Shown in pieces: positions 13,924 to 42,854 of a DNA stretch of 50,270 bases; position 1 is the first letter of the stretch, and each line of letters opens with the position of its first letter. Below the pieces are notes generated by a model. That model was not told the DNA's origin. It ran no database searches and saw only the letters and a program-made list of their open reading frames with translations. Source of the DNA: a virus (Duplodnaviria; Caudoviricetes); the IMG/VR virus record IMGVR_UViG_3300044260_000061, positions 1 through 50,270 of that record; one strand, written 5' to 3'. A program made the translations under genes and the position numbers.

Positions 13924-14744
13924 CGCGCTCGGGCCCTCGCGGGGACGCCGCGTCCCCAGCCGGGTCGGGGCGGGCGTGGGGGCTGGGGGACGGGGGCGGG
14001 CGGCGGGCCTCCGCCCGCTTCGCGCTCGAGCTGTCGCCAGATCCGGACCAGGCGCTGCAGCCGCATCGAGGCCGGCCCCAGGTTGAAGACGGCCCGCCGC
14101 AGGCTGCTCTTCAGGTGCACGATGCGGGTCAGCGCCGGATCGAAGGAGGCCCACGACGAGTCCTCCAGGTTCCACTCGACGCAGGGCAGCTTCAGGACCC
14201 GGAGGTCGAGCCGATCCACGATCCCCCCCTCCAGCATCGCGCCCAGGGCGGCCTGGTTACACCCGCCGTAGGTCCGTCTCCACCGCTGGTGCTCCTGTGG
14301 CGCCTCGAGGAGCCGCACGTTCTCCCGTTGCCACGCCGCGGCAAACTGGCGCGACGCCTCGCCCACCCGCAGAAACACGACGCCGCTGTTGAACGGGAAG
14401 CGCGAGGTCGTCTTCACGGTGTAGGCCAGGTCGAATTCCGCGTCCCACACGTCGTCGAGCGGGCGCAGGACCATCGTGTCGGAGTCGATCAGCAGGATCC
14501 GCTCCCCGTCCACCGCCGCCGCGATGACGTCCGCCCAGGCGTCCATCTTCATCGTGTTGTGGGCGTGGCTCGCGATCCCAAGGGGGCTCCGCCTCGGCGC
14601 CGGATTGATCCTCTGGACCTCGACCTCCCAGCCCGGGCAGTGCCGACGCGCCGTGAACTCCAACACGCGCGCCATCCTGGAAAACTGCTGGTTCTCCCCG
14701 AACCAAGGCGAGACGAGACGGGGGGCGCGGAGGCTATCGGCCAA
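13920..14744 (-). CDS. GT-A fold glycosyltransferase (GT8/GT34/GT77-like, 274 aa)
   Basis: LLIDSDTMVLRPL (DxD), FNSGVVFLR, NQAAL, EWN and IVHLK appear in the canonical order. Confidence 0.82.
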   Translation of the reverse strand: MADSLRAPRLVSPWFGENQQFSRMARVLEFTARRHCPGWEVEVQRINPAPRRSPLGIASHAHNTMKMDAWADVIAAAVDGERILLIDSDTMVLRPLDDVWDAEFDLAYTVKTTSRFPFNSGVVFLRVGEASRQFAAAWQRENVRLLEAPQEHQRWRRTYGGCNQAALGAMLEGGIVDRLDLRVLKLPCVEWNLEDSSWASFDPALTRIVHLKSSLRRAVFNLGPASMRLQRLVRIWRQLEREAGGGPPPAPVPQPPRPPRPGWGRGVPARARAR

Positions 14745-16629
14745 GATAGGAGCTCCTCGAGGCGCGGCGCTCGTTCGGTTGCGCGGGTTTCGTGGGCGCT
14801 GAACCCGAATCGCCGCCGCTCCCCGGCTTGGGCACCGGCGTCGCCGCGAGCGTCTCGGCCATGTGGCGGATGTTCGGGTTCAGGAGCCGGAACGCCGCGA
14901 GGGTGAGGACCGCGGTGTCGAGCGCTTCGTTCCGCTCCCGGTCCTGGACCCACACGCTATGGGTCGCGACGCCGGCCTTGTTCTTCCGGGTCTCCCGGTG
15001 CTCGGCGCAGAGCTGAGCGAGGTACTCCTCGTCTATCCGTTCCGGGAAGTGGAGGTAGCCGGGTCCGGGCGCGGCGAGCGCGAGGGCCGCCATGATCTCC
15101 GCCTTCGCGTCGTCCACGTTGACGGGATAGAGGCGGACGGGCCGGCCGCGGCGCCCGTAGGTCTTCTCGTTTACTCGGCCGATGATCGGCTCCCCCGAGC
15201 GCCCGGCGACGCCCTTCGTCGCGAAGATCCGCCGGTGCTGGTGCGCGAGCACGAAGTCGTAGATTTCCTCGGTGGCGTAGCCTGAGTCGATGCAGCTCGC
15301 GTGGATCGGGAGGAGATGCCCCGAGGCGTGCCGGTATCGGGCGCTGAGGGCCTCGAGGAGGGCCGCCTGGGTCTCGGCCCGCTTCGGGCTCCCGGGGATC
15401 GAGCGCCAGTCGACGACCCACCGCTCGCCGGCCGGCCCCCAGGCGACGACCTGCAGCGCGAAGTAGTCGACCTGGACGTCAACGCCGGCCGTGAGGCACG
15501 GGGCCTCCGCCGGGACCTCGACGTCCTCGCCGTAGGACTCCCGCCGCCCGAGGAAGCTCTGCGGCTCGAGCCGCGCACCGCGGTCCTCCCAGCCCTCGGC
15601 GAGCGACGTGTTGATGAACACCCGGAGGGCTTCCTTCCCGCGGGCCCGGGCGGACAGCCACTTCGCCACCAGGCCCGGGAGGGTGACGTCCCCGAGGGTC
15701 GAGACCATCGCCGGGAGATGGAAGCCGGCGAGGCCGGGCTCGTCCGCCTGGCGCGTCGCCCGCCACTCGCCCCGCGCGACCATCGCCCGCCGCTCCGGCT
15801 CGCGCATCCGGGCGCCGCAGGGGCACTCGAGGCAGGCGCTCTCGGCGTCCTCGCCGTCGAAGACGACCCGGAGGTGCTTGGGGTCATTCCAGGAGATCCA
15901 GTCCTCCCGGCCGCAGGTCGGGCACGCCACGAAGTATCGCCGCTGATCGCTCCGCGCGTAGAGGGTGTCGATCCGCCCCCCCATGAGGGTGGGGGTCGAG
16001 ACGAAGACGGTGAGGGCGTCGTAGAAGCTGGTCCCGCGGTTGATGAGTAGGTCGACGGGGTCACCCTCCTCGCCGACGACCGCGGGCCACCGGTCGACGT
16101 CGTCGCCGATGCCAAGGCGGATCGCACTCCGGGCGAACGGGTTCGGGCTGTTGGCGCCGCCGAGGATGATGAAGCCACCGGGGAACATCTTCATCGTCAG
16201 CGTGCTTTCGGCCTGTTGGGCAACCGTCCTCGGCTGCGCCTTGTCGCGGACGACCGCAGCGAGCTCGGGGGTCGAGCGGATCATGTCCGCCAGCCGTTCC
16301 TTCGAGTAGGCCTGGGCGACCTCGACGGTCGGGTGGATGACCAGCATCGGGCAGGGGTCGTGGTGGACGTGGTAGCCGATGACGTTGTTCAGCGCCTCCG
16401 ACCCGCCACTCTGCACGCTCTTCATCAGGGCGATCTTCCGGATCCCCTCCTCGCGGGTCGCGTCCATGATCCCCATCAGGTACGGCGCGACCTCGTTGTG
16501 CCACTTCCCGCCGCGGGCCGCGCTGGTCTCCGGCAGCATCCGGTACCGGTCAGCCCACTCGCTCACCGTCAGGCGGGGCGGGGGCTTCCACGCCGACGCC
16601 CACTCTGCCGTGAGGGTCGCAGAGCTCAT
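14734..16629 (-). CDS. terL: terminase large subunit, lambda gpA family (631 aa)
   Basis: PPRLTVSEWADRYR, KSVQSGGSE, STPT, CPTC/CPC zinc sites, LTAGVDVQ, IDSG and RNEALD. Start at 16629 by ATGA coupling. Confidence 0.96.
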   Translation of the reverse strand: MSSATLTAEWASAWKPPPRLTVSEWADRYRMLPETSAARGGKWHNEVAPYLMGIMDATREEGIRKIALMKSVQSGGSEALNNVIGYHVHHDPCPMLVIHPTVEVAQAYSKERLADMIRSTPELAAVVRDKAQPRTVAQQAESTLTMKMFPGGFIILGGANSPNPFARSAIRLGIGDDVDRWPAVVGEEGDPVDLLINRGTSFYDALTVFVSTPTLMGGRIDTLYARSDQRRYFVACPTCGREDWISWNDPKHLRVVFDGEDAESACLECPCGARMREPERRAMVARGEWRATRQADEPGLAGFHLPAMVSTLGDVTLPGLVAKWLSARARGKEALRVFINTSLAEGWEDRGARLEPQSFLGRRESYGEDVEVPAEAPCLTAGVDVQVDYFALQVVAWGPAGERWVVDWRSIPGSPKRAETQAALLEALSARYRHASGHLLPIHASCIDSGYATEEIYDFVLAHQHRRIFATKGVAGRSGEPIIGRVNEKTYGRRGRPVRLYPVNVDDAKAEIMAALALAAPGPGYLHFPERIDEEYLAQLCAEHRETRKNKAGVATHSVWVQDRERNEALDTAVLTLAAFRLLNPNIRHMAETLAATPVPKPGSGGDSGSAPTKPAQPNERRASRSSYLGR

Positions 16630-17243
16630 GCGGGGATCTCCTGGAGGACGGCCGCCCCCAGAGCGGCGTCCCACCGCCCGAGCTCCTCGAGCGCCTCGAC
16701 GACGAGCGCGTAGAGGGCCGACTCGTTCTCACGAGCCACGATTCCCCGCATGACGGCCTGGTGAGGCGTCGACAAGAGCCGCGCCTTCGCCGCGGTGATG
16801 TGGGCGCGTCCCTCGGCGACGGCGGCCGTTCGCTCGACGAGCTGGCCGGCCCGGACGAGGTTCTCCCGCTCCCACTTCTGCGCCTGGGCATCCGCCAGCC
16901 GCGCCCGGGCGGCCCCGAGGCTCAGGTTCGCATCCGGCCGATCCCCCTTCCCCCTCACCCACGCCCGCAGGGCCTCGAGGTCGTACATCGCCGAGTGCCC
17001 GCGCCGCCCCGGCATCGCCACCGGCGCCCCGTCGGCCGCCCACTTGTTGATCCGGTTCGGCGCCACGTCGAGCTCGCGCGCGGCCTCGGCGCGGGTCACG
17101 AGGCCGCCTGGCCGGCTCCCGACGGCCGGGAGGGTGCCTCGGCGGGCCGACTTCCGGCGGGGACGACCGCCCCTGGGGCCTCGGCGGGCCTTCGTTGCCG
17201 GCAGTTTCTTCGTCTTCGCGCCGGCCTTTCGGTGTCTCCTCAA
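16626..17243 (-). CDS. terS: terminase small subunit (Nu1-like)
   Basis: VTRAEAARELDV...INKW...GAP...YDL winged HTH followed by coiled coil and GQLV motif; directly upstream of terL. Start uncertain. Confidence 0.85.
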   Translation of the reverse strand: MRRHRKAGAKTKKLPATKARRGPRGGRPRRKSARRGTLPAVGSRPGGLVTRAEAARELDVAPNRINKWAADGAPVAMPGRRGHSAMYDLEALRAWVRGKGDRPDANLSLGAARARLADAQAQKWERENLVRAGQLVERTAAVAEGRAHITAAKARLLSTPHQAVMRGIVARENESALYALVVEALEELGRWDAALGAAVLQEIPA

Positions 17244-17384: not shown

Positions 17385-18107
17385 TCATGCACTTACGCCG
17401 CCCCATCGTGGCAGCACGCGCCCCCTCCAGTTCGCGCGGCAGGGGTCGCCCAGGTGCAGGACGTAGAAGTCCAAGAGGCCGACCTTGTGCGCGAAGCTGC
17501 CGCGGAAGACCAGGTCGTACTTGCCCGCGGTCTTGAAGCTGCCGAGGGCTTGGCCCGGGTAGTAGCGGAAGAGCTGGAAGTAGCCGAGGCAGGCCTTGGC
17601 CGCCTTGCGGATGGTCGACTTGTTCGCGCCACGGACGATGGCGGGCGCATCCATGCCGCGATCACGGGGGAGCATCAACGGAAGCGCCCCCCGCTTCGTC
17701 TGGCCCCCGCGGTGCGCCTCGAGATCGGCCGCTGTCGCGCAGAGGTAGCGGGCGCAGCCGTAGATGGCGCCCGGCCTGAGCCTGTCGGCCGGGAGGTGGC
17801 CGAACGGGTAGACGTCGGCGTCGGCGACGAGGCAGCGTTCGCCCATGGCGGGCGGGCCGAGGTTGCCCCGGCTGGTGATGCCGAGCGCCTCGTCGAGGGC
17901 GGCGGCCTTGTCGAAGGCGTGCCCGTGCGCGTACCACGCCTCGGTGATGTGGAGGCGGGCGCCGAGACGGGCGGCGAGAGCCTGCGTGTCGCGGTCCTTG
18001 GGCGCGGTGACGACCGTGATGCTGGCGAAGGGGAACATGGCTTGCCAGGCGGGCAACGTGACCGCGAGGAAGTCGGCGTAGTCAACGGCCGGGACTACGA
18101 TGCGCAC
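17385..18107 (-). CDS. GT2-like glycosyltransferase (240 aa)
   Basis: N-terminal IVVPAVDYADFLAVTL, FDKAAALDEAL, LVADADV (DxD), GYFQLF and VLHLG motifs. Confidence 0.75.
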   Translation of the reverse strand: MRIVVPAVDYADFLAVTLPAWQAMFPFASITVVTAPKDRDTQALAARLGARLHITEAWYAHGHAFDKAAALDEALGITSRGNLGPPAMGERCLVADADVYPFGHLPADRLRPGAIYGCARYLCATAADLEAHRGGQTKRGALPLMLPRDRGMDAPAIVRGANKSTIRKAAKACLGYFQLFRYYPGQALGSFKTAGKYDLVFRGSFAHKVGLLDFYVLHLGDPCRANWRGRVLPRWGGVSA

Positions 18108-19441
18108 GCGAGCACCCTATTCTCGAGCAGCACCTCGTCGGGCCACATCTCCAGCACGCGGAAGTCCGGAAGCATCTCGAGGATCTCGCGGAGGGTGGCT
18201 TGCCCCTCGTAGAGCTCGTCGTCGGACCACTCGGTGTAGAGGTAACGGGTGCGCTCGAGGACGTCGTGCGCCCCGCGGATCATCTCGCGCTCCGCGCCCT
18301 GGATGTCAGCCCAGATGAGCGCGACGTCCCCGACTCCCTCGCGAGCGCAGAAGCTGTCGAGGGTCGTCGTGTGGACTTCGATCGTCTCCCCGAAGGTAAC
18401 GGGGTAGCGCCTGAAGTGGTTCTTGGGCAGCTTGAGCGAGGACGAATAGGTCCACTCGCGCCCCCATCCCCCCCGGCTCAAAACGAACGGTGCCACCCCA
18501 TCGCGGTCCGAAACGGCGAGCTCGTGGACGACGACGTTCGGCCTGGGCGGCTGGGTGTTGCGCGGATCGGGCTCGAAGGCGTGGACCGTGGCCCCCGGGA
18601 CCTGGGCGAGCCATGCTGTGTCGGTGCCCTGGTGCGCCCCGAGTTCGAGGAACACCTTGGCTTCCGGGCGGGCGAACGTGCGCTCGACCCACTCCCGGAT
18701 GGCGAACGGGTTGCGGCTCAGGCGCCGCCCTCGCGCCTCGATCCCGGCGCGCACGCCGCGCGACAGCGCCAGGCAGGAGTCGTAGTCGTCCCCTGCCCTG
18801 GAGATGCCGGCGACGCGCGAGAGCTCCTTGACGCAGCGGCTCCAGGTTGCCGTGGTCCAACGACGCGGATGCTTCGCGTGGAAGGCAACGGGGAAGTCCA
18901 CACAGCAGACCGGCAGGCCATGCGCAGCGAAGACGTGCGGGAGCCAGTAGTCCCAGGCCGGTTGCCCCATGCTGAGGAAGGACTCGGGGAAGAGCGCGCC
19001 GTCGCGGCCGTGGAGGAGGAAGGCGTCGATCCCGTAGTGCTCCCGCGCTGCGGGCGCGGCGGTGCCGTTGTGGTTGTGCCGGATGAAGTAGGCGAGCCCG
19101 CGGTCGGACAGCCAGCGCAGGCGCTGCATCTCCCACGGGGCGAGCCTCAGCTCGAGATCCGCGTTCACCAGGAGGACGGGCGCGTCCTGGTCGCGGGCCC
19201 AGTTCAACAGTGCGTTGATCGGCACGTAGTGGCGGCCGAAGGTCTTGATCGAGGTGTTCTTCACCGGGACGAAGTCCACGTCGTAGAGCTTGGCGAGGGC
19301 GGCGATCTCGGATGGATGGTTGAAGGACCTGACGGAGAGCCCCGCGGACGCCCAGGATCGCAGGGCCAGACGCTGGACCTCCACGCCTCCGTGGGGCGAC
19401 AGCGACGTCAGGGCGTAGATGGGGTCGGGGCTCGGCCTCAC
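18095..19441 (-). CDS. glycosyltransferase-like domain fused to FkbM-family methyltransferase (448 aa)
   Basis: N-half has LLVNADLEL, GIDAFLL and GQPAWDYWLP. C-half has FLELGAHQG (SAM motif), AFEPDP, TTLDSF, DIQGAE and YTE, typical of FkbM. Confidence 0.82.
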   Translation of the reverse strand: MRPSPDPIYALTSLSPHGGVEVQRLALRSWASAGLSVRSFNHPSEIAALAKLYDVDFVPVKNTSIKTFGRHYVPINALLNWARDQDAPVLLVNADLELRLAPWEMQRLRWLSDRGLAYFIRHNHNGTAAPAAREHYGIDAFLLHGRDGALFPESFLSMGQPAWDYWLPHVFAAHGLPVCCVDFPVAFHAKHPRRWTTATWSRCVKELSRVAGISRAGDDYDSCLALSRGVRAGIEARGRRLSRNPFAIREWVERTFARPEAKVFLELGAHQGTDTAWLAQVPGATVHAFEPDPRNTQPPRPNVVVHELAVSDRDGVAPFVLSRGGWGREWTYSSSLKLPKNHFRRYPVTFGETIEVHTTTLDSFCAREGVGDVALIWADIQGAEREMIRGAHDVLERTRYLYTEWSDDELYEGQATLREILEMLPDFRVLEMWPDEVLLENRVLACAS

Positions 19442-19469
19442 GTCTACTCCCCCCGGGGGGTTCGTTTTT

Positions 19470-19528
19470 CGCGGCTGCGCCTCCCGCAGCCCATGGACGG
19501 GCGACTGCGGGAGGGCCAGCGCTTCGCG
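19470..19528. other. intergenic GC-rich hairpin
   Basis: CCTCCCGCAG (19480-19489) pairs with CTGCGGGAGG (19505-19514), with extendable outer arms. No downstream U-tract on either strand. Confidence 0.55.
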
Positions 19529-19553
19529 GGGGCGATGGTCAACGGCTCGCGCC

Positions 19554-20384
19554 TCAGTAGAACGGGAACGCGCGGCCGCTGCCGGAGTTGTAGTAGAGCG
19601 CGACGTCGTTCGCGCTCAGACCACGGGACCAGATGGCGAGGCCGTCCATGACGGTGTTGAGGTACTCGCCGCTTCTTCCTCCGACCGTGAGGTCGGCCGA
19701 CGAAGAGCGCACGTTGTAGGTCAGGTCTCCGCAGGTGAAGGCGGCATTGTTGACGGAGATGCACGCCTGAGCCTTGCCGTAGGGGCCGTAAGGGCTCAAC
19801 TTCCAGACCACGAGGGCCCACTGGTCGAGGGGGATCGCGCTCGCGTAGGTGTAGCTTTGCCCGGTGTCCGTCTCGTCCTCCCAGGCGTCCAATTCCGGTT
19901 TCCCAGCGTTGAGCCGCAGGATGATTCCGGAGCTGTCGCTTGCTGTCCCCGATCCGTCCGTCGTGGCGAGGACGGTCTGCAGCCCTGACGCCGTGCTCTG
20001 GTAGAGCCAGACCGCGACTGTGAAGTACGACGTGAACATGTTCGAGCCGAAGCGCGGGATGCGGAACTGGCTCGACGTGGTGTTGAAGTTGCCGGCGCTG
20101 TAGGAGGATCCCGTCCAAGCCATGTGTGTGGCGTTGCGGTTCACGCCGGCGGCCCCCATCTCGTACAGCGGCGTGTTGGCGTAGGAGCCGAAGCGCGTCG
20201 AGTCGGTCGCCTCTTCGAAGTTCCACCACTCGACCAGGCCGCGGCACAGGACCGACTGCTGCGGGTCGCAGATGCCGACGGCGGCCTCCGCGGGGCGAGG
20301 GGCGAGGGGCGTGTGGGACGGGGCCAGCATGAGCGCGGCGACGATCCCCGCCGCGAGGAGTCCGACCCGGATTGCCTTCTTCAT
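19554..20384 (-). CDS. secreted LamG/concanavalin A-like lectin-domain protein (276 aa)
   Basis: Sec signal MKKAIRVGLLAAGIVAALML...AEA; LVEWWNFEE, FTVAVW, QWALVV, MDGLAIWSRGLS and LYYNSG LamG pattern. Confidence 0.8.
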   Translation of the reverse strand: MKKAIRVGLLAAGIVAALMLAPSHTPLAPRPAEAAVGICDPQQSVLCRGLVEWWNFEEATDSTRFGSYANTPLYEMGAAGVNRNATHMAWTGSSYSAGNFNTTSSQFRIPRFGSNMFTSYFTVAVWLYQSTASGLQTVLATTDGSGTASDSSGIILRLNAGKPELDAWEDETDTGQSYTYASAIPLDQWALVVWKLSPYGPYGKAQACISVNNAAFTCGDLTYNVRSSSADLTVGGRSGEYLNTVMDGLAIWSRGLSANDVALYYNSGSGRAFPFY

Positions 20385-20432
20385 GGTTTCTTTCCTCCCT
20401 TTCCTTCGTTTCGTGTGGAGTGGCCGCAGCGC

Positions 20433-21242
20433 CTACGGGTTGGCAGTGAACGGGTAGGCGCGGCCGGAGCCGGAGTTGCAGAGCCAGGAGACTTCCCCCG
20501 CGCTCAGGGTGCCGGAGAAGATGCTGAGCTGGTCGAACTTGTAGGCTGAGATCCTGTCCATGTTCCCGATCCGGAAGTCGCCCAGGAACACCTGCGGCGG
20601 GTAGGTGATCGTCTGCGTCGTCGCCGCCCCGCCGTTCACGCGGATCCACAGGGTCGACTGATAGGGCTCGGTGGTCGTCGGGCTCGCGTAGATCCCGAAC
20701 GAAACGAAGTACCACGTCGTCGCGCTGAGAGTCGTCGAGTCCTCGACGTAGCTCACAGTGTCGGTCATCGACTGCTTCACGGTGAAGCGGAAGTGGTGGA
20801 CCGAAGACGTGTTTGTGTCGGACAAGTAGGAACCGACCTTCGTCCCGCTGTCGTCATACGTCCCGATGAGAGTGCTCGTGGCCCCGAGCGAGTCGGCGTA
20901 CAACCAGACGTTGGCCGTGAACGACGTGCCAAGCGACGGCGACCGCGGGATGTAGAGGTACTCCGTCCCGGATCCGGTGTCGGGGGCAAGGGAATAGGAG
21001 CCGGTCTTGTGCGTCGACGAGCGGGCGAGGTCGTAGCCTCCCCGCTCGAGGAAGGGCGCCGTCCCCGTCTCGCTGGTCCGGTCGTAGTTCGCGGCCTCCT
21101 CGAACTCGTAGAGGGCGACGAGGGAGGCGCACATCTTCGCCTTGGCGGGGTCGCACAGGGTGTAGGTGCGGTCGGCGGCGCGGGCCGGGAGCGCGAGCGC
21201 CAGGAGCGCGGCGACCGCGTACAGCATGAGTCTCTTCTTCAT
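20433..21242 (-). CDS. secreted LamG-like protein, paralogue of the downstream gene (269 aa)
   Basis: ATG 21242 after AGGAGG; signal MKKRLMLYAVAALLALALPARA; LVALYEFEE, FTANVW, TWYFV, FDQLSIFSGTLS and NSGSGRAYPF. Confidence 0.8.
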   Translation of the reverse strand: MKKRLMLYAVAALLALALPARAADRTYTLCDPAKAKMCASLVALYEFEEAANYDRTSETGTAPFLERGGYDLARSSTHKTGSYSLAPDTGSGTEYLYIPRSPSLGTSFTANVWLYADSLGATSTLIGTYDDSGTKVGSYLSDTNTSSVHHFRFTVKQSMTDTVSYVEDSTTLSATTWYFVSFGIYASPTTTEPYQSTLWIRVNGGAATTQTITYPPQVFLGDFRIGNMDRISAYKFDQLSIFSGTLSAGEVSWLCNSGSGRAYPFTANP

Positions 21243-21308
21243 CGTCTTGTCCTCCTTGTGCGTGTCGGCCATCTCGATCCCCCTCCCCGGGGGTGGTAAA
21301 AAGATTCC

Positions 21309-21346
21309 GCTACCAAGTAGCCACGGGATGTGCTAGGGTTTCCTCC
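21309..21346 (+). promoter_or_regulatory. candidate promoter/operator for the plus-strand two-gene insert
   Basis: Inverted repeat GCTAC-CAA-GTAGC (21309-21321) and extended -10-like TGCTAGGGT just before GTG 21347, possibly leaderless. Confidence 0.4.
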
Positions 21347-21529
21347 GTGGGCACGAAGCGACTGCGGCGGACGGTTTCGGTGTGGGACTGCCGGTGCGAG
21401 AGGTGCGGGCACGAGTGGCGGGCGATGGGGGCGAAGGCGCCGACGTCGTGCGCCCGGTGCAAGAGCAAGAGCTGGAACACGCGGCCCGGGACCGTGAAGC
21501 CGGGGCCGAAGGCGAAGGGGGATCGGTGA
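21347..21529 (+). CDS. small zinc-ribbon protein (60 aa)
   Basis: CERCGHEW...CARCKSKSWN gives two CxxC pairs with a basic tail; its stop overlaps the next start (TGATG). Confidence 0.7.
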   Translation: MGTKRLRRTVSVWDCRCERCGHEWRAMGAKAPTSCARCKSKSWNTRPGTVKPGPKAKGDR

Positions 21530-21714
21530 TGGAAACCGGCCCGATATACGGCATCCTCGGCGTAATCTCCGCCGTGTTGGTTATCCTCTTGCTGGAGCAT
21601 TACGACCCGACGTTTCGGCATAGCAGTAAGTCGCGGAAGCTGGCATGGTTTGTCCCGATCCTCATCGTGTCCAGCTTCATGGTCTGGTTCTTCGAGTGGC
21701 TCAGGTCTCCCTAG
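21529..21714 (+). CDS. small 2-TM membrane protein, candidate immunity protein (61 aa)
   Basis: METGPIYGILGVISAVLVILLL...LAWFVPILIVSSFMVWFF. Visibly AT-richer than the flanks; stop overlaps the convergent gene's stop (CTAG). Confidence 0.7.
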   Translation: METGPIYGILGVISAVLVILLLEHYDPTFRHSSKSRKLAWFVPILIVSSFMVWFFEWLRSP

Positions 21715-22715
21715 CGGTACTGGGTAGGGCATCCGGCCTCGGCCAAGATCTTTCGAGTGGCTGGATCCATCCGAGCATCCATGGCGCTGGCGTTGCTATA
21801 GGCGGCGATACCGAGACCCGAGAGTCCCGCCGCCATGGGGGCTGCAGCAGCGAGGTCGGCCGCGAGGGTGGTGGGCGCTATTAGGACGCCCGTGCCGGTC
21901 CCCAGGATCACGGCCCGTTGGGCTTCCTGCGGGGTCACGCCGCCGCGCGACGCCCAGAACCTCATCGCAGACTGTCCCCAACTGTTCCATACCGTTGCGA
22001 CGTAGTTGTTCGCGTACGACACCGACCGATAAGCCGCACGCGACTTGTTCCCCGTCATCAGCTCCTCGGCAGCGTTGACGAGCTCGGGCCCGTTCGGCGT
22101 GACCTGAACCGTGTATCTGTCGGTTGCGAAGGAGTACGCGGCGTAAAGCAAGGCGGCAGCACCCGCGTACCATACCCAGGTCGGCAACTCTCCGCTGTTG
22201 ACGACGGACTTTGCTTCTGCCGAGGCGCGTGGCGTTGAACCCTGCGATGAGTAGACTGTCCCCCTGTTGGGAGTCGGACACATGGGGCTCACGGGCGCTG
22301 GCGTGGCCACGGGCGCGGGAGTGGCCACTGGCTCTGGCGTCACGGGGGGCGCATCGGGCAGACACGAATACGTGGGCTGGTCCCAGTGCGAGCCGTCAGG
22401 GCACCCGCCCTCGTTCTTGTCTCTCCCGCCACCGCCAGTCGTTCCGTTGTTCCCTCCGGTGGGTGACGGATATCCCTGACCGGCGCCGGAGTGGGGAGGA
22501 CCAGCATTCACGTCTACCTCGACCCGGTGCCCACCCCAGGGATCTGCGCAGTAGACTGCGCATCCCCCCCACGAGCACGCCTCTCCCCAGGGATACGTCC
22601 CCTCTGGGCATATCCCAGGGGGCAACGTGAAGGCCGGCGGTGGAGGTGCCAGCAGAAAGATCATCGCCACGATCACGGCAGTCGAAACACCCTTCATTCG
22701 TCGCATTTCTCTCAT
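21711..22715 (-). CDS. secreted Cys/Pro-rich protein with C-terminal hydrophobic hairpin, candidate toxin (about 334 aa)
   Basis: Signal peptide, Cys-rich and Gly-rich N-region, PVATPA linker, hydrophobic segments WVWYAGAAALLYAAYSF and AVILGTGTGVLIAPTTLAADLAAAAPMAAGLSGLGIAAY. The function is inferred. Confidence 0.6.
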   Translation of the reverse strand: MREMRRMKGVSTAVIVAMIFLLAPPPPAFTLPPGICPEGTYPWGEACSWGGCAVYCADPWGGHRVEVDVNAGPPHSGAGQGYPSPTGGNNGTTGGGGRDKNEGGCPDGSHWDQPTYSCLPDAPPVTPEPVATPAPVATPAPVSPMCPTPNRGTVYSSQGSTPRASAEAKSVVNSGELPTWVWYAGAAALLYAAYSFATDRYTVQVTPNGPELVNAAEELMTGNKSRAAYRSVSYANNYVATVWNSWGQSAMRFWASRGGVTPQEAQRAVILGTGTGVLIAPTTLAADLAAAAPMAAGLSGLGIAAYSNASAMDARMDPATRKILAEAGCPTQYR

Positions 22716-23224
22716 TCCTCCTTCGTTTCCTTCGGGTCGCCCCCCCCGCCTTTTTCGCGCGTCGCCGCCGCGTAACGCGGGCATCCCGGATAGCCGCACC
22801 CCACGTCCCCCAGGAACGAGAGCTGCTGCTCCAAGTCCGTGTTCCGGACCTCCAGCACCGTCGCCCGGTTCTCGAGCAGGGCGATCCGCGGCACCGCCTG
22901 CGCGATGACGTGGACCTCGTTCGTCAGGTTGGTGATCGCCTGCGCCAGATCGCGGAACAGCGTGGCGACGTTGTGGTCCATGGTCCCCAGGCGCTGCTCA
23001 TGCCTGTCGACGAGATCCTCGACGCGCCGGAGCCGCAGGTCCTGACTCGGCCCGCTCCACCCGCGCGACGCGACAAACAGGGCGACGAGTAGCGCGAAGT
23101 TGACGATCGGGAAGCCGATGTCGATGGCCGCCACCGGCGGGGCGATCCCCCTCATCATCGCGAGCAGGACGACGAGGAGAACGACGTTCAACGTCGGCAG
23201 GCCGTAGCTCAGGACTCGCTTCAT
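22712..23224 (-). CDS. 2-TM plus coiled-coil membrane protein (holin/spanin-like, 170 aa)
   Basis: Two N-terminal hydrophobic helices, heptad-rich C-half; lysis region. Confidence 0.6.
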   Translation of the reverse strand: MKRVLSYGLPTLNVVLLVVLLAMMRGIAPPVAAIDIGFPIVNFALLVALFVASRGWSGPSQDLRLRRVEDLVDRHEQRLGTMDHNVATLFRDLAQAITNLTNEVHVIAQAVPRIALLENRATVLEVRNTDLEQQLSFLGDVGCGYPGCPRYAAATREKGGGGDPKETKEE

Positions 23225-23670
23225 CGCTTGGTCTCCGGTGGGGTGTTGTTACGCGCGACGTTGCGCTCCCGCTTCGCGCGGATCGCCTCGGCTCGCGTCA
23301 TCAGCGCCGCGACCTGCTGCGTCAGCCGCGCGCTCTCGTTGCCGTCGGCGACCCACAACTGGTCCCGCACCAGGTCGATGAGCAGCTTCTGGCGGATGAG
23401 CTCGTGGATGAGGCCGTCGACGGCGATGAGCCGGTTTTCGTCGGCCTGGCCCGGCGTCCAGACGTGCAGGCTGTGCCGGATGGCGTCGAGGAGGTAGCGG
23501 ATTGCCTTGCCCTCCAGCTCGCGCTTCTCGCGGGCGGCGCGCCGCTTCCGGGCCCACCGCGTGGCCAGCGCCCAGGCACCGGCGAGGAGGCCGAGGATCG
23601 CCGTGAGGGCCTTCGCCGAACTCTCCAGCTCGACGGTCGTCGGCCAGGCCCAGGCGTGGCTCATCCTCAT
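23221..23670 (-). CDS. single-TM membrane protein (149 aa)
   Basis: ALTAILGLLAGAWALA followed by basic RWARKRR and a helical domain. Confidence 0.6.
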   Translation of the reverse strand: MRMSHAWAWPTTVELESSAKALTAILGLLAGAWALATRWARKRRAAREKRELEGKAIRYLLDAIRHSLHVWTPGQADENRLIAVDGLIHELIRQKLLIDLVRDQLWVADGNESARLTQQVAALMTRAEAIRAKRERNVARNNTPPETKR

Positions 23671-24508: not shown

Positions 24509-25936
24509 TCACGGGACGACCACCGATCCGCACGCCTTCCCGCTCTGGTCGCAGACCTTGACGGTGCCGCGGCCCATGTAGATCGCCTGCGCCGGGTTCG
24601 TGTTCGTCGTGCCGGCACACTCGCAGTTCCCCGGGACACGGCACGGGAACACCTCGACAGTCGGGCTCTCCGCTGACCAGACGGGGACGCCGAAGACGCG
24701 CCGCTCGCACGCTTCTCGGTCGGCGGCGCCCTCCTGGCGGACGGGACAGAAGGAGCGGCCGTCGGTGAAGCCGATGCGCGCGCAGTACTCGCGCCCCTCG
24801 ACCAGGCCCGTCGAGTCGAGGTTGGCGCAGAACGCCTGATGGATCTTGACGTTGAAGCGCGCCGCGGGAGGGGGTGCCGGCTCGCCGCATCCATCGCCCG
24901 CCGGGGCGGCGTAGGCTCCGCGGACGGCCTGCGGCGACCAGACCACCGTCCCGGGGCCCGAGGGTGGCCCGGCGTAGACGTGCCAGCCCTCGCGGGGAGT
25001 CGTGATCGAGGTGGCGACCGCGATCTCGTCAGTCTCCGGCGTGTGCTGGCCGGAGCAGAGCGCGGCCGCGCGGAGCTCGGCGATCACCTGGGCCTGCCAC
25101 TCCTGGCGCCCGACGTCGAGGACGCACCTCCCGCCGACCTCGCAGTCGGGGCGGCGCCGGAGCATCGCGGCGTTGACGGCATCGCCGAGCGCGTTGTGGT
25201 AGCCCTCGATCGCCGCCCCGGGCTCGCCGTCAATCGAGCAACCGGTCGGCGGCGGGGTGGGAAGAGGCGTCGGGGTCGGGGTAGGCGAGGGGGTGGGGAC
25301 CGGCGTCGGAGTCGGGACCGGTGTCGGCGTCGGCCCTGGAGTCGGCGACGGCGTCGGCGTCCCGCAGGCCTCGGCTTGCCGGCGGGCCTCCGTGCACAGG
25401 GACGAATCCGGGACCGCCGCGCAGGTTGCGACCGCGGCGTCCTTCAGCTTCGAGCACTCGTCGGGGCAGCCCCGGGCACCGACCAGGAACGGCAGCGCGA
25501 GGGCGATCAGCAGGAACGCCCCCCCTTGCGTCTTTGACCGCGGCACCTCGACACCCTCCCTCTCCATCACGACCGCCCACGCGATCACGGCCATGAGCGG
25601 CAGCGCCGTGACGACGATCGCCTGCCCGCCGCTCCACCAGTACGCCCCGCCCGTCACCACATGGAGCGCGAACTCGCCCACGAAGAGCCCGGCCACTGGC
25701 ACGCGCGCGAGGCGCCAGCGCCGGCGCGGACGGATGCCGATCCAGTTCCAGATCCGGTCCGAGAACGTCGCGCCGGGCGCGTGGTTGACGACGGCCCACA
25801 GCTCCATGACCAGGAACGCCGCGAGCCAGTACGTCCACTGAGCGGCGACCTGGCCCCGCGCGAAGGACCAGACCATCGCGCCGCAGAAGGCCGCAAGGAT
25901 CAGGATCGGGAACGGGCCGGGGCGCCGCGGGCTCAC
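24509..25936 (-). CDS. multi-TM domain fused to Cys-rich lipoprotein-like domain with Pro/Thr linker (475 aa)
   Basis: GTG 25936 (GTGA overlap); about 4 TM helices; then MPRSKTQGGAFLLIALALPFLVGARG-C, a PT repeat and a Cys-rich domain (YCARIGFTDGRSFCPVRQEG). Confidence 0.7.
   Translation of the reverse strand: MSPRRPGPFPILILAAFCGAMVWSFARGQVAAQWTYWLAAFLVMELWAVVNHAPGATFSDRIWNWIGIRPRRRWRLARVPVAGLFVGEFALHVVTGGAYWWSGGQAIVVTALPLMAVIAWAVVMEREGVEVPRSKTQGGAFLLIALALPFLVGARGCPDECSKLKDAAVATCAAVPDSSLCTEARRQAEACGTPTPSPTPGPTPTPVPTPTPVPTPSPTPTPTPLPTPPPTGCSIDGEPGAAIEGYHNALGDAVNAAMLRRRPDCEVGGRCVLDVGRQEWQAQVIAELRAAALCSGQHTPETDEIAVATSITTPREGWHVYAGPPSGPGTVVWSPQAVRGAYAAPAGDGCGEPAPPPAARFNVKIHQAFCANLDSTGLVEGREYCARIGFTDGRSFCPVRQEGAADREACERRVFGVPVWSAESPTVEVFPCRVPGNCECAGTTNTNPAQAIYMGRGTVKVCDQSGKACGSVVVP
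25245..25361 (-). repeat. Pro-Thr coding repeat (linker)
   Basis: TPTPSPTPGPTPTPVPTPTPVPTPSPTPTPTPLPTPPPT encoded by degenerate 6-bp units. Confidence 0.85.
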
Positions 25937-26601
25937 TTGAACCTCACCGCCGCGCCGAAGGTGCCGGTGTAGGCGCCAGGCCCCACGGCCAGGGAGCCGA
26001 TGGTCGCGACGCGATCGTTGATCGCGACCTGCCAGACGAACGTCCCGGCGACGCCGCGGAGGGCCTGGTTCTGGCCGGCGACGCCGTAGATCCATCCTCC
26101 GGGCCATGACGCGCGGAAGCCGACGCCGGCCGTGATGCGCTTCGGCAGCGTGGGGGCGACCCCGGCGTCGTTGTGCTCGAGCGCGACGGCGCCGCCGATG
26201 GCGGCCGCGGGGCCGAGCACGACTCTCCCCGGGAGCCGCAGCGCGTCGTAGGCGCTGGCGACGTGGACCTCGATGGAGCGCACGGTCTGCCAGTCGCCCT
26301 GGACGTACTCGCCTGGAATCCCGGTGGCATCGCCCCGCGCGGCGTAGCGCCAGCCGTGGTATCGCACCTCGGCCTGGAGACGGCCCCCGACGAGGTCGCG
26401 CGGTGCTGCCCCGCCGGGCGTCCAGGACCGCTCGGTCAGAAGCCAGCCTTCGACTCCGAGGCACGGCGTCGCGAGGGGGTCGCACGGCGGCTTCGGGGCT
26501 GGCGCTGGCGCCTCTTGCGCGCCGGCCGCGCCGGCGAGGGTAAGGCAGACGCCGATGGTCCAGGCCCAGGCCCAGAAGCGCCGCCACCGTGAACCCGCCA
26601 T
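25933..26601 (-). CDS. outer-membrane beta-barrel protein (222 aa)
   Basis: ATG 26601 after GAGGAGG; signal ending AGA|QE; alternating amphipathic strands; C-terminal YTGTFGAAVRFK resembles a BAM beta-signal. Confidence 0.7.
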   Translation of the reverse strand: MAGSRWRRFWAWAWTIGVCLTLAGAAGAQEAPAPAPKPPCDPLATPCLGVEGWLLTERSWTPGGAAPRDLVGGRLQAEVRYHGWRYAARGDATGIPGEYVQGDWQTVRSIEVHVASAYDALRLPGRVVLGPAAAIGGAVALEHNDAGVAPTLPKRITAGVGFRASWPGGWIYGVAGQNQALRGVAGTFVWQVAINDRVATIGSLAVGPGAYTGTFGAAVRFK

Positions 26602-26812: not shown

Positions 26813-27394
26813 TCACTTGCCACCGGCGAACAGCATGGGGTCGGGGATCGGGATGCGGCCGAACTGCACCTGGATCCGCTCGACGTAGTCGCGGACCTGG
26901 TGGTAGTCCGCCCACCGCCCGGAGACCGCAGCAGAGCGGTGGAACAGGTACCGCCAGCTCGGCTCCCAGGCCCACCACAACGGACCACCGTCCGTCTCTG
27001 CGAGCGCCAGGGCGCGCACGACGTAGCCCCTGCCGCAGTTGTACGCGGCGAAGGACCAGCGGAGCGCCTCGAGTCGAGACGGCACGCGCCCCTCGATGGC
27101 CTCGTACTGGCGGCGCAGGTACGTCACGCCGCCGTGGAGGTTCTGGGCCGGGTCGAGCGGATCGCGGACGCCGACCTCGTCGGCCGTCCCGGGCATGAGC
27201 TGCAGGAGCCCCTGCGCGCCGGAGGGCGAGACCGCGCGGGGGTCGCCGCGGCTCTCGGTGTGGACCTGGGCCTCGATCCAGCGCGCGCCGTCAGCGAGGC
27301 CGGGCCAGACGGAAACGACTGTCTGCTGGATGAGGGGGCGCCAAGCTGCTGCTCCGCTCGGCGGTATCAACCCCGGCCCGGCCGCTCCGCCCAT
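26813..27394 (-). CDS. endolysin, SLT lytic transglycosylase
   Basis: ES catalytic motif (HTESRGDPRAVSPSGAQGLLQLMPGTA) and AAYNCG. Start uncertain (27370-27496). Confidence 0.9.
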   Translation of the reverse strand: MGGAAGPGLIPPSGAAAWRPLIQQTVVSVWPGLADGARWIEAQVHTESRGDPRAVSPSGAQGLLQLMPGTADEVGVRDPLDPAQNLHGGVTYLRRQYEAIEGRVPSRLEALRWSFAAYNCGRGYVVRALALAETDGGPLWWAWEPSWRYLFHRSAAVSGRWADYHQVRDYVERIQVQFGRIPIPDPMLFAGGK

Positions 27395-27502
27395 CGCACC
27401 CCCACAGAGAGTCCGACTGCGCTCTCCGCGTTGGTACGACCGCGGCCCGGCGGCCTTCATCGCCCCCGCTGGCACTGCCGGGGGCTCGGGCTTCACGACG
27501 CG

Positions 27503-33226: not shown

Positions 33227-33510
33227 GCGGCCTCCCCGCCGCCGTCAGGGGGGAGGCCGTCGAAGCACGCCTCTTCCTGCGCGGCCTCCTCGGCGCGGCG
33301 CCGGTCCTCGGCCTCGCGCTCCGCCTCTTCCAGCGACCGCTCCTCGGCCCGCTCGCGCTCCCGTCGCCCCTCGTCGTAGCCGACGGCCCAGGCGTCGTGC
33401 AGGGGCCGCTCGTTCTCGCGCAGCGTCGAGTGCGGGTTGTCGGTCGACCACCGGCTGCGCCGGCCCTCGTCGTGGGCTTCCTGCTCCTCGTGCGTCCAGT
33501 AGGTCGTCAT
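33223..33510 (-). CDS. hypothetical acidic protein (95 aa)
   Basis: ATGA coupling; NPH...AWAVGYDEG motif, then a charged helix. Confidence 0.6.
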   Translation of the reverse strand: MTTYWTHEEQEAHDEGRRSRWSTDNPHSTLRENERPLHDAWAVGYDEGRRERERAEERSLEEAEREAEDRRRAEEAAQEEACFDGLPPDGGGEAA

Positions 33511-42443: not shown

Positions 42444-42481
42444 CAAGATTGAAGATAGGTACGCTTGATCGTAAAGTCAAG
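42431..42481. promoter_or_regulatory. two operator-like inverted repeats TTGA-N8-TCAA
   Basis: TTGAGCGTGCCATCAA (42431-42446) and CTTGATCGTAAAGTCAAG (42464-42481) overlap the cro start and the -35 box. Confidence 0.7.
42452..42480 (-). promoter_or_regulatory. sigma70-type lytic promoter for cro
   Basis: TTGACT-17 nt-TATCTT, ending 8 nt before the cro ATG. Confidence 0.75.
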
Positions 42482-42512
42482 TACTTTCTCGCGGACGGTG
42501 TACCGTTCGGCG

Positions 42513-42854
42513 GTGGCTGGGAAACCGCGGGCGATGGCCGTCCTGTCGAAGCGGGTGAAGATGCTGCCGCGGGGGACTCAGAAGGTGGTCGCCGAGTTGG
42601 CTGGCCTCAGCGCGGAGACCATCACCCGGTGGAAGGGCGGTCACGGGAATCCGAGGCTCGGCGACCTGGAGGCCTTCGCCGACGTGCTCGGAGTTTCGGT
42701 GGCCTACCTGGTCGACGCGGCGCGTGTGGAGGCGCCGAAGATCCCGCCTACGAGCGCCGACGGGAGGCGCCTCGAGAGGCTCGTCCGCGACGGCGAGCGA
42801 ATCGAGGCGGAACTGCCGAAGGCGTTGGACGCGGTCCGAGGTCGGACGCGATGA
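42513..42854 (+). CDS. CI-like XRE repressor lacking a peptidase domain
   Basis: TQKVVAELAGLSAETITRWKGGHGNPRLGDLEAFADVLGVSVAYL. Start GTG 42513 or ATG 42534. Confidence 0.85.
   Translation: MAGKPRAMAVLSKRVKMLPRGTQKVVAELAGLSAETITRWKGGHGNPRLGDLEAFADVLGVSVAYLVDAARVEAPKIPPTSADGRRLERLVRDGERIEAELPKALDAVRGRTR

What the first reader, a model, noticed from the sequence alone, without database searches (positions are those of the whole stretch)
21347..22715. Candidate phage-borne secreted pore-forming toxin with convergent membrane immunity gene
Seen: a late-strand gene encodes signal peptide, Cys-rich domain, Gly-rich stretch, Pro linker and a helical C-domain with a long small-residue hydrophobic hairpin. 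Its stop overlaps the stop of an opposite-strand 61 aa 2-TM gene, which is coupled to a zinc-ribbon gene with its own candidate promoter. Both partners are AT-richer than the genome. Established: pore-forming colicins have a C-terminal hydrophobic hairpin and a convergently transcribed small inner-membrane immunity gene. Inference: a bacteriocin-like toxin/immunity system that lets lysogens kill non-lysogens, from a family I do not recognise.
Basis: partly seen in the sequence, partly recalled or inferred. Interest (0 to 1): 0.78.

Follow-up and report, generated by a model that had tools for sequence, protein, structure and literature searches.

The report
Orphan exported phage protein, unproven toxin
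A temperate phage from sediment carries a one-of-a-kind exported protein gene lying tail-to-tail with a tiny membrane-protein gene; the layout fits a toxin and its antidote, but no test available here could support or refute that.

Summary
A 334-codon ORF (21711-22715, minus strand) has an N-terminal export or anchor segment, a Cys/Gly/Pro-rich half and an Ala-rich helical C-half with a 39-residue weakly hydrophobic hairpin. Its stop overlaps (CTAG) the stop of a 61-aa two-TM gene, which is coupled (TGATG) to a 60-aa zinc-ribbon gene. The window is a whole temperate lambda-like phage record whose terminase relatives sit in Vicinamibacteria and Rokubacteria MAGs. The genes lie in a variable cargo slot between the lysis cassette and the terminase. 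The closest relative has only a methyltransferase there.

The large protein and the 61-aa protein are orphans: only self-hits in 1.84 and 5.8 billion proteins, and no hit in Pfam, PHROGs, NCBIfam, PADLOC, PDB, phage, viral or metagenome collections, or in 401 Acidobacteriota genomes. Both have the lowest GC3 of the phage's genes, which suggests they arrived together.

There is no match to the colicin pore domain. AlphaFold models are unusable (pLDDT about 40), and no promoter was found. The toxin/immunity reading is still the single most likely specific mechanism (about 25%) but remains untested. Rivals are a cis-acting envelope or lysis accessory, unrelated cargo genes, and a partly non-coding ORF.

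The parts
21711..22715 (-). Orphan 334-aa ORF ('target'). It is exported or anchored, with a Cys/Gly/Pro-rich N-half and an Ala-rich helical C-half.
   Evidence: Open frame. Anatomy. An open frame of 335+ codons arose in 5 of 2000 shuffles, and GC3 is 0.734 against a mean of 0.906 for 40 phage genes. No homologue.
22623..22715 (-). Residues 1-31: positively charged N-terminus, a 14-residue hydrophobic run, then a proline run. This is a signal peptide or an uncleaved signal anchor.
   Evidence: Hydropathy. Only one weak -3/-1 site (after residue 30) and no lipobox. ATGA overlap with the upstream stop and GGAGG upstream.
22236..22622 (-). Residues 32-160: a Cys cluster (C36, C47, C52, C56), a Gly/Asn/Thr-rich stretch, a Cys pair (C105, C118), a Pro/Ala/Thr/Val linker and C146.
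   Evidence: Composition and Cys positions. 18-nt tandem repeat at 22290-22352. No clear codon-usage frame.
21714..22235 (-). Residues 161-334: Ala-rich, predicted all-helical C-domain.
   Evidence: Helices in both AF2 models, but pLDDT is only 39-40. Codon log-likelihood is best in this frame. This part was called as a 146-aa gene by the source.
21798..21914 (-). Residues 268-306: two adjacent small-residue hydrophobic segments (the 'hairpin').
   Evidence: Kyte-Doolittle 1.60 and 1.44. The summed Hessa-scale values are positive, so hydrophobicity is marginal.
21529..21714 (+). 61-aa protein with two TM segments and a basic loop ('tm61').
   Evidence: ORF and overlaps. Two TM-like 19-mers with KD 2.45 and 1.87. 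Codon log-likelihood is clearly best in this frame. GC3 of 0.823 is below all 40 reference genes. Only a self-hit.
21347..21529 (+). 60-aa CxxC...CxxC zinc-ribbon protein, GTG start, whose stop overlaps the tm61 start.
   Evidence: Weak Zn_ribbon_8, HypA and FmdB-type hits below cut-off. One relative, L018:3917-4120, with 16 of 28 residues identical. 21293-21346 is non-coding by codon usage.
21273..21346 (.). Intergenic stretch between the LamG gene and the zinc-ribbon gene, with an A-rich patch. This is where a promoter for the plus-strand pair would have to sit.
   Evidence: No sigma-70-like site; one weak terminator-like hairpin on the minus strand at 21321-21309. Folding is no better than shuffles.
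22712..23224 (-). Upstream 170-aa gene (TM + coiled coil + GCGYPxCPR motif). It is the last gene shared with relative L002 before the cargo slot, and its stop overlaps the target's start.
   Evidence: 37% identity to the L002 homologue.

Best explanation
**Shown.** The finding is a real, compositionally foreign, orphan gene set. It is carried as cargo in the variable slot between the lysis cassette and the terminase genes of a temperate lambda-like phage. The large gene sits on the late strand, and its start overlaps the stop of the last conserved lysis-region gene. Its product has an N-terminal export or anchor segment and a helical C-domain with a marginally hydrophobic hairpin. A 61-aa two-TM gene abuts it tail-to-tail on the strand that also carries the repressor and integrase.

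**Inferred (the single most likely specific mechanism, about 1 in 4).**
- The large protein is a membrane-active antagonistic protein made late in infection.
- It is exported to the periplasm, where its Cys-rich half is oxidised, and it is set free when the phage lyses the cell.
- Its C-domain inserts the hairpin into the inner membrane of neighbouring sensitive cells and depolarises them.
- The 61-aa inner-membrane protein, made by lysogens, neutralises it in the membrane.

This works like an ionophoric colicin with its immunity protein, or like Tse5/Tsi5-type effector pairs. It is not a member of either family.
For: **Phage context.**
- Pfam hits to terminase GpA, lambda-type portal, ClpP-like protease, head decoration protein D, major capsid protein E, a tail tube protein, an integrase, a Cro/CI-type HTH protein and an antirepressor.
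- The window is a whole viral record, about 91% complete.

**Cargo slot.**
- In tblastn of 16 window proteins against 16 related loci, L002 (TerL 80% identical) shares p76, part of p24509, p170, p240 and TerS.
- The target and tm61 hit none of the 16 loci.
- L002 has a Methyltransf_24 gene directly after its p170 homologue.
- Other relatives carry different contents before TerS: a PAS-domain protein, fibre-like proteins, a HerA-like ATPase.

**Foreign pair.**
- GC3 is 0.734 for the target and 0.823 for tm61. Both are below all 40 reference genes (mean 0.906, sd 0.038).
- The flanking p170 and LamG genes have GC3 of 0.90-0.94.
- The two genes overlap stop on stop.

**Protein features.** Export segment, 7 Cys in the N-half plus 1 near the C-terminus, and the hairpin.

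**Precedents.**
- The ionophoric colicin immunity gene lies on the opposite strand with its own promoter (PMC9517006, passage in section 5).
- The pore-forming Tse5-CT has an inner-membrane immunity protein with two predicted TM regions and is described as unique to one species (PMC9637101, passages).
Against: **No family or structural support.**
- No hit to the Colicin family at E <= 10, by protein scan or six-frame search.
- No Pfam, PHROGs, NCBIfam or PADLOC hit of note. The only PHROGs hit at E <= 5 is phrog_11783 (unknown function, E 0.0078) over the Pro-rich linker.
- No usable structure: pLDDT 40.4 and 39.3. Foldseek found 0 matches at E <= 0.001 and no colicin among the 50 listed rows.

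**Expression and partners unexplained.**
- No promoter-like site was found for the small operon.
- The zinc-ribbon partner has no role in the model. Its one relative is followed by an XRE-type HTH gene, not a membrane gene.
- Colicins have no signal peptide; this protein has an N-terminal hydrophobic segment with no clean cleavage site.

**Comparison impossible or unconfirmed.**
- There are no homologues, so the predicted co-variation of C-domain and small gene cannot be seen.
- The N-half has no clear coding signal by phage codon usage.
- The 47 nt across the convergent junction (21718-21764) are not covered by the contigs of the run that otherwise matches exactly.
Confidence: 0.25

Rival explanations
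1. Unrelated cargo genes. The large protein is an envelope protein that acts on the infected cell or lysogen itself, for example by masking or destroying a receptor, or by superinfection exclusion. The zinc-ribbon/tm61 pair is a separate cargo operon on the lysogeny strand that merely abuts it.
For: - The slot is variable among relatives.
- It also holds two secreted LamG proteins and a methyltransferase, which are envelope-type cargo.
- The zinc-ribbon gene has ordinary phage GC3 (0.934), unlike the target.
- Its one relative is paired with an HTH gene instead.
Against: - The target and tm61 are the two lowest-GC3 genes of 42 and overlap stop on stop, which suggests joint arrival.
- The start overlapping the stop of a lysis-region gene points to late expression, which is not useful for exclusion in a lysogen.
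Confidence: 0.2
2. Accessory lysis factor. Anchored in the inner membrane by its N-terminus, the protein spans the periplasm with its Gly/Pro-rich linkers. Its Ala/Gly-rich C-terminal hairpin perturbs or fuses membranes at lysis. This resembles a spanin or a depolarising trigger, like a unimolecular spanin with reversed polarity.
For: - The start overlaps (ATGA) the stop of p170, a TM + coiled-coil protein with a conserved C-terminal Cys motif that occupies the place of an i-spanin.
- A crude scan found no credible lipobox ORF in the window or in L002's lysis region, so no canonical o-spanin was seen.
- No clean signal-peptidase site was found.
Against: - L002 keeps the p170 homologue but has a methyltransferase in place of this gene, so the gene is dispensable for the lineage's lysis.
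- No spanin or holin family hit.
- The foreign codon usage fits cargo better than a core lysis gene.
- This model does not explain tm61.
Confidence: 0.12
3. Partly or wholly non-functional ORF. Only the C-terminal 146 codons (as called by the source), or nothing, is translated, and the N-half 'domains' are low-complexity sequence read in an open frame of GC-rich DNA.
For: - The codon log-likelihood of the N-half is no better in the ORF's frame (-0.455) than in two others (-0.41, -0.54), and the C-half is only weakly positive at +0.057.
- The source called a 146-aa gene.
- There is no homologue anywhere, so no evidence of selection.
Against: - An open frame of this length arose in 5 of 2000 shuffles.
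- No competing ORF with a coding signal was seen on either strand.
- The frame begins with a canonical charged-then-hydrophobic export segment, placed exactly at an ATGA overlap with GGAGG upstream.
Confidence: 0.15

Closest known systems
Ionophoric (pore-forming) colicin operons with their inner-membrane immunity genes (colicins A, E1, Ia, N)
   Same: - A helical C-terminal domain carrying a roughly 40-residue small-residue hydrophobic hairpin close to the C-terminus, preceded by a Gly-rich low-complexity N-terminal part.
- A small inner-membrane protein gene on the opposite strand immediately downstream (PMC9517006, section 5 passage).
- Production tied to cell lysis.
   Different: - No sequence match to the Colicin domain or to any immunity family.
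- The protein has an N-terminal export or anchor segment and 8 Cys.
- It is 334 aa with only about 95 residues ahead of the hairpin in the C-domain.
- It is phage-borne and on the late strand.
- The small protein has 2 TM segments in 61 aa. From recall, colicin immunity proteins have 3-4 TM in 110-180 aa.
- A zinc-ribbon gene heads the small operon.
T6SS membrane-depolarising effector/immunity pairs such as Tse5-CT/Tsi5
   Same: - A lineage-restricted toxin domain with no recognisable family, built of hydrophobic and amphipathic helices.
- The immunity protein is a small inner-membrane protein with two predicted TM regions (PMC9637101 passages).
   Different: - No Rhs, PAAR or VgrG delivery module and no T6SS context.
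- The genes are convergent rather than co-directional.
- Delivery would have to be by Sec export plus phage lysis.
Lambdoid cargo genes ('morons') at the lysis-terminase junction, such as lambda bor (recalled, not fetched)
   Same: - Accessory envelope genes inserted between the lysis cassette and the terminase, absent from close relatives and atypical in composition.
- One unit lies on the strand opposite to the late genes.
   Different: - bor is a lipoprotein with a known family; the genes here are orphans.
- No promoter or terminator could be identified for them.
Spanins (Rz/Rz1 two-component; T1 gp11 unimolecular; recalled)
   Same: - The position is directly after a TM + coiled-coil lysis-region gene with overlapping start and stop.
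- A periplasm-spanning Pro-rich protein with Cys residues and a membrane-active end.
   Different: - No lipobox.
- Several times larger than an o-spanin.
- Absent from the nearest relative, which keeps the upstream gene.
- No PHROGs spanin hit.
Phage-borne bacteriocins and polymorphic toxins
   Same: The idea that a temperate phage arms its lysogen with a toxin plus immunity is in print. [quoted passage not shown]
   Different: Those are lysins or peptide gene clusters, mostly in Gram-positive hosts. Here the candidate is a 334-aa protein with a colicin-like layout in a phage of a probable diderm soil or sediment host.

Membership tests
Colicin pore-forming domain (Pfam PF01024) | Sequence match to the Colicin domain profile | tested here: not met
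   No Pfam family at E <= 10 for the whole protein, and only DUF3606 (E 0.12) for the C-half. A six-frame search of the record with PF01024 found 0 matches at E <= 10; the control genomes rang.
Colicin pore-forming domain (Pfam PF01024) | Ten-helix globular bundle burying a hydrophobic helical hairpin | tested here: inconclusive
   AF2 predicts only helices, but with mean pLDDT 40.4 (whole protein) and 39.3 (C-half). Foldseek against PDB gave 0 matches at E <= 0.001 and TM <= 0.30 among the 50 listed rows.
Colicin pore-forming domain (Pfam PF01024) | Hydrophobic hairpin of about 40 small or hydrophobic residues near the C-terminus | tested here: met
   Residues 268-286 and 288-306 have KD 1.60 and 1.44, followed by a 28-residue polar tail.
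Ionophoric colicin operon | Immunity gene on the opposite strand downstream, with its own promoter | tested here: inconclusive
   A convergent small membrane gene is present. No sigma-70-like promoter was found in 19300-23400.
Ionophoric colicin operon | Toxin lacks a signal peptide and is released by a lysis lipoprotein | tested here: not met
   The protein has an N-terminal charged and hydrophobic export or anchor segment. No lipobox ORF was found in the window.
Colicin or other bacteriocin immunity protein families | Profile match of the 61-aa protein | tested here: not met
   0 families in Pfam (also at E <= 10), NCBIfam and PADLOC. In PHROGs, 0 families at E <= 0.01 and only phrog_9373 (unknown function, E 0.1) at E <= 5. 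Atlas look-alikes are unnamed two-TM proteins scoring 0.90-0.91.
Polymorphic toxin systems | Recognisable N-terminal trafficking or pre-toxin domain, with the immunity gene directly downstream on the same strand | tested here: not met
   No Pfam domain. The downstream gene is convergent.
o-spanin / u-spanin | Lipoprotein signal with a lipobox Cys | tested here: not met
   The sequence before the first Cys is LPPGI-C. No lipobox pattern was found, by a rule-based scan only.
Holin (for the 61-aa protein) | Profile match, or TM segments plus a charged C-terminal tail within a lysis cassette | tested here: not met
   No holin family hit. The C-terminal tail is only about 5 residues. The gene lies on the strand opposite to the lysis genes.
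Phage moron / cargo gene | Absent from the syntenic slot of close relatives | tested here: met
   0 of 16 related loci have a target or tm61 match. L002 has a methyltransferase in the slot.
Phage moron / cargo gene | Atypical composition | tested here: met
   Target GC3 is 0.734 (z -4.5) and tm61 is 0.823 (z -2.2) against 40 genes. The zinc-ribbon gene is ordinary at 0.934.
Phage moron / cargo gene | Own promoter and terminator | tested here: inconclusive
   No promoter-like site and only weak 5-bp hairpins. Folds at the junction and in the intergenic stretch are no better than shuffles. Promoter rules for the presumed host are unknown.

The most novel reading that the evidence does not exclude
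A previously unseen family of protein bacteriocin, carried by a temperate phage of an Acidobacteriota-like host. It would be a Sec-exported, disulfide-rich protein whose helical C-domain depolarises neighbouring cells after release by phage lysis. Lysogens would be protected by a 61-residue two-TM immunity protein encoded tail-to-tail with it. This would be a colicin-like logic invented independently and delivered by a phage.
Probability: 0.22. Interest if true: 0.65.

Novelty: new variant of a known kind. Interest (0 to 1): 0.33.

Why it matters
**If the toxin/immunity reading is true.**
- It would add a new pore-former family and a minimal immunity protein.
- It would show that phages of poorly studied soil and sediment phyla arm their lysogens with protein bacteriocins released by phage lysis.
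- It would give a small, easily tested pair: a 170-residue domain plus a 61-residue protector.

**If it is false.** The locus is one more orphan cargo gene set in a variable phage slot, which is ordinary.

**Either way.** The case shows how little can be decided for singletons. Both proteins are alone among billions of predicted proteins.

Tried and rejected
**Homology searches for the target, all blank.**
- Word-indexed search of 5.8 billion proteins: 0 of 7999 scored candidates.
- HMMER against 1.84 billion representatives: only the record's own 146-aa call. Its 90% cluster is a singleton.
- IMG/VR pattern scan: 0.
- tblastn against 50,697 phage records: 0.
- PDB sequences at E <= 10: 0.
- Metagenome contigs: 0 relatives among 103 pattern matches.
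- 401 genomes of the phylum of a related prophage's host: 7 had matches at E 3.8e-4 to 0.01. These are at the level expected by chance for that many genomes. Three contain stop codons and most fall in the low-complexity N-half. The one I translated (L022) is junk.
- The two MAGs that carry related prophages: 0.

**Other searches.**
- Atlas feature search of the C-half: best score 0.82, which is noise. For tm61: unnamed two-TM clusters at 0.90-0.91.
- tm61: only a self-hit, as a 99-aa call; 0 in viral contigs.
- Zinc ribbon: no word-sharing candidate. Of 2 viral loci returned, L019 is a spurious hit inside a terminase-like ORF.
- No similarity between the target's Cys-rich half and the other Cys-rich phage proteins.
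- A p170 alignment used to fish for more relatives of the slot found 0 in metagenome contigs and only L002's own contig in viral contigs.
- Rfam and tRNA scans of the window: 0.

**Structure and complex.**
- The two AF2 jobs are unusable, and the Foldseek run on the poor model is therefore meaningless.
- Complex prediction of the C-half with tm61 returned 'no answer': score 0.00, controls not run, folded without alignments. This is not evidence either way.

**Sequencing runs and other steps.**
- No RNA holder is listed.
- DNA contigs of two sediment runs match exactly where they cover the stretch, but leave 21718-21764 uncovered.
- The colicin review PMC1847374 is not held.
Full report
**What the window is.** The window is a complete IMG/VR viral record of 50,270 bp, estimated 91% complete. 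Pfam identifies these parts:
- a lambda-type packaging and head module: small terminase by PHROGs, GpA large terminase 14734-16674, lambda-family portal, ClpP-like protease, head decoration protein D, major capsid protein E;
- tail proteins;
- an SLT-domain endolysin (26813-27496);
- a RecT/YqaJ recombination pair, a C5 DNA methylase and an antirepressor;
- on the plus strand, a Cro/CI-type HTH protein (42465-42854) and an integrase (43769-44833).

So it is a temperate lambda-like phage. Its late genes run on the minus strand and its lysogeny genes on the plus strand.

No isolated phage is close: all 856 phage records with a TerL match are below 60% identity. TerL relatives were found in:
- 13 viral contigs, out of 22 pattern matches;
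- 3 genomic loci, out of 44 pattern matches. Two are prophages in one Vicinamibacteria MAG (69%) and one is in a Rokubacteria MAG (62%).

I infer a diderm soil or sediment host, possibly Acidobacteriota. The two sequencing runs that hold the stretch are labelled sediment metagenomes.

**The observation.**
- The minus-strand ORF 21711-22799 is open for 362 codons.
- The ATG at 22715 overlaps the TGA of the upstream 170-aa gene (ATGA) and is preceded by GGAGG. A second ATG lies three codons further in. I take 21711-22715 as the gene, 334 aa.
- An open frame of at least 335 codons arose in 5 of 2000 shuffles of 21700-22800.

The protein has these parts:
- a charged N-terminus followed by a 14-residue hydrophobic run and a proline run;
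- a Cys cluster (positions 36, 47, 52, 56);
- a Gly/Asn/Thr-rich stretch;
- a second Cys pair (105, 118);
- a Pro/Ala/Thr/Val linker encoded by an 18-nt tandem repeat;
- a 170-residue Ala-rich C-half in which both AF2 runs place only helices. It contains two adjacent small-residue hydrophobic 19-mers (268-286, 288-306) followed by a polar 28-residue tail.

- The stop of this gene and the stop of the plus-strand 61-aa gene share CTAG (21711-21714).
- The 61-aa gene's ATG overlaps the TGA of a 60-aa CxxC...CxxC zinc-ribbon gene (TGATG).
- The 61-aa protein has two strong TM segments separated by a basic loop.

**Points that weaken the description.**
- The sigma-70 scan found no promoter-like site in 19300-23400.
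- The intergenic stretch and the convergent junction fold no better than shuffled sequence.
- There is no clean signal-peptidase I site and no lipobox, so the N-terminus may be an uncleaved anchor.
- Phage codon usage supports the ORF's frame only weakly in the C-half (+0.057 bits per codon against about +0.45 to +0.5 for neighbours) and not at all in the N-half. The N-half's Gly/Pro/Cys composition can explain part of this.
- The source's gene caller predicted only a 146-aa C-terminal gene and a 99-aa form of the small gene.
- In the run that otherwise matches exactly, two contigs end at 21717 and 21765, so the 47 nt across the junction have no independent confirmation.

**Context.** In gene order on the minus strand the region reads:
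1. SLT endolysin;
2. two unknown genes, one of them a polytopic membrane protein with a Cys-rich, Pro/Thr-linked ectodomain;
3. a holin-like 115-aa protein;
4. a TM + helical 145-aa protein;
5. the 170-aa TM + coiled-coil protein;
6. the target;
7. the convergent plus-strand pair;
8. two secreted Laminin_G_3 proteins;
9. an FkbM methyltransferase;
10. a conserved 240-aa protein;
11. TerS and TerL.

I compared 16 window proteins with 16 related loci by tblastn. The closest relative, L002 (TerL 80%), shares p76, the N-terminal part of the polytopic protein, p170 (37%), p240 (54%) and TerS. The target and the 61-aa protein hit none of the 16 loci. In L002 the p170 homologue is followed directly by a Methyltransf_24 gene and then the p240 homologue.

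Other relatives differ in the endolysin type: glucosaminidase, GH108 and peptidase M15. They also carry different genes before TerS: a PAS-domain protein, fibre-like proteins and a HerA-like ATPase. The finding therefore lies in a variable cargo slot at the lysis-terminase junction.

**Composition.** Forty reference genes of the phage have GC3 of 0.906 ± 0.038, with a minimum of 0.826. The target has 0.734 and the 61-aa gene 0.823, both below every reference gene. The zinc-ribbon gene (0.934) and the flanking p170 and LamG genes (0.90-0.94) are ordinary. The two abutting outliers probably arrived together. This is the only positive evidence I found for a functional link between them.

**Orphan status.**
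- The target has no family hit of note in Pfam (also at E <= 10), NCBIfam, PADLOC or PHROGs. At E <= 5 PHROGs gave only phrog_11783 (unknown function, E 0.0078) over the Pro-rich linker.
- It has no relative in the 5.8-billion or 1.84-billion protein sets other than itself.
- It has none in PDB sequences, phage records, viral contigs or metagenome contigs.
- Six-frame searches of 401 genomes from the phylum of a related prophage's host gave only chance-level matches (7 of 401 at E 3.8e-4 to 0.01).
- The 61-aa protein is likewise a singleton.
- The zinc ribbon has one credible relative, in another viral contig (16 of 28 residues identical, including the second CxxC). There it is followed by an XRE-type HTH gene rather than a membrane gene.

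**Testing the toxin reading.**
- The Colicin pore-domain profile does not match, either against the protein or six-frame against the record (0 at E <= 10, while control genomes rang).
- AlphaFold2 without an alignment gave mean pLDDT 40.4 for the whole protein and 39.3 for the C-half.
- Foldseek on the latter gave no match at E <= 0.001, and only TM-scores of 0.30 or less among the 50 listed rows, none a colicin. With such a model this says nothing.
- The complex job for the C-half with the 61-aa protein returned no answer.

**What remains is analogy.**
- Ionophoric colicins keep their immunity gene on the opposite strand with its own promoter (PMC9517006, section 5 passage).
- Lineage-restricted pore-forming effectors such as Tse5-CT have two-TM inner-membrane immunity proteins (PMC9637101 passages).
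- A late-strand, exported, membrane-active protein released by phage lysis, with a protector made from the lysogeny strand, is coherent with this layout.

Several things count against the reading. The zinc-ribbon gene has no role in it. No promoter was found. Colicins lack signal peptides. The marginal hydrophobicity of the hairpin fits a buried hairpin and a weak TM pair equally well.

**Rivals.**
- The start/stop overlap with p170 suggests an accessory lysis role, as does the absence of any credible lipobox ORF in the window or in L002's lysis region (crude scan). But L002 keeps p170 without this gene.
- The envelope-type neighbours (two LamG proteins 30% identical to each other) suggest generic envelope cargo, with the plus-strand pair unrelated.
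- The weak coding statistics keep open a partly non-coding ORF.

**Verdict.** I put the toxin/immunity mechanism at about 0.25, unrelated envelope cargo at 0.20, a partly non-coding ORF at 0.15 and a lysis accessory at 0.12. The rest is unassigned. It is not a member of the colicin family or of any other known family. Phage-borne bacteriocin-like factors are already in print (search listings and abstracts only), so this would be a new variant rather than a new kind. Interest is modest until a bench test or the first homologues arrive.

Noticed in passing
window 19554-20384 (-) and 20433-21272 (-): Two paralogous secreted Laminin_G_3 (concanavalin-like) proteins lie here. They are 30% identical to each other. 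Each has a signal peptide and an N-terminal C-x7-C motif, and their GC3 is typical of the phage. They are absent from L002. Their role is unknown; lectin-like envelope or surface cargo is one possibility.
   Followed up: partly
window 22712-23224 (-); L002:7128-7568: A TM + coiled-coil protein ends in a conserved GCGYPxCPR motif. Only two members were found, this phage and L002. It sits where an i-spanin would, but no lipoprotein partner was seen in either phage by a rule-based lipobox scan.
   Followed up: partly
window 24509-25960 (-); L002:4552-5799: A large protein has about five N-terminal TM segments, a Pro/Thr linker and a Cys-rich C-terminal ectodomain. It lies between the endolysin and the holin-like gene. 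Only the membrane part is shared with L002.
   Followed up: no
window 43095-43763 (+): A protein with a zinc ribbon plus a DUF6677-like region lies between the CI-type repressor and the integrase. That position is typical of prophage exclusion or abortive-infection genes.
   Followed up: no
window 21717 / 21765: In the run that otherwise matches the record exactly, two contigs of similar depth end at 21717 and 21765. The gap lies exactly across the convergent stop/stop junction. This could be a graph branch from a strain variant or just a gap.
   Followed up: no
window 21691-21701 and 21752-21762: An exact 11-nt direct repeat (TTCGAGTGGCT) flanks the stop/stop junction at 61-nt spacing. It may be chance or a recombination scar.
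   Followed up: no
window 18095-19441 (-) and 17385-18107 (-): An FkbM-family methyltransferase (448 aa) is followed by a conserved 240-aa protein of no known family (54% identical in L002) just before TerS. L002 has a Methyltransf_24 gene in the equivalent place.
   Followed up: partly
related loci L003, L015, L017 versus window 26813-27496: The endolysin type differs among TerL relatives. It is SLT here, glucosaminidase in L003, GH108 plus PG_binding_3 in L015 and peptidase M15 in L017, in the same position.
   Followed up: partly
window 33507-36853 (-): The early region holds a C5 cytosine DNA methylase next to a 577-aa AAA_23/AAA_21 (AbiEii-like) ATPase.
   Followed up: no
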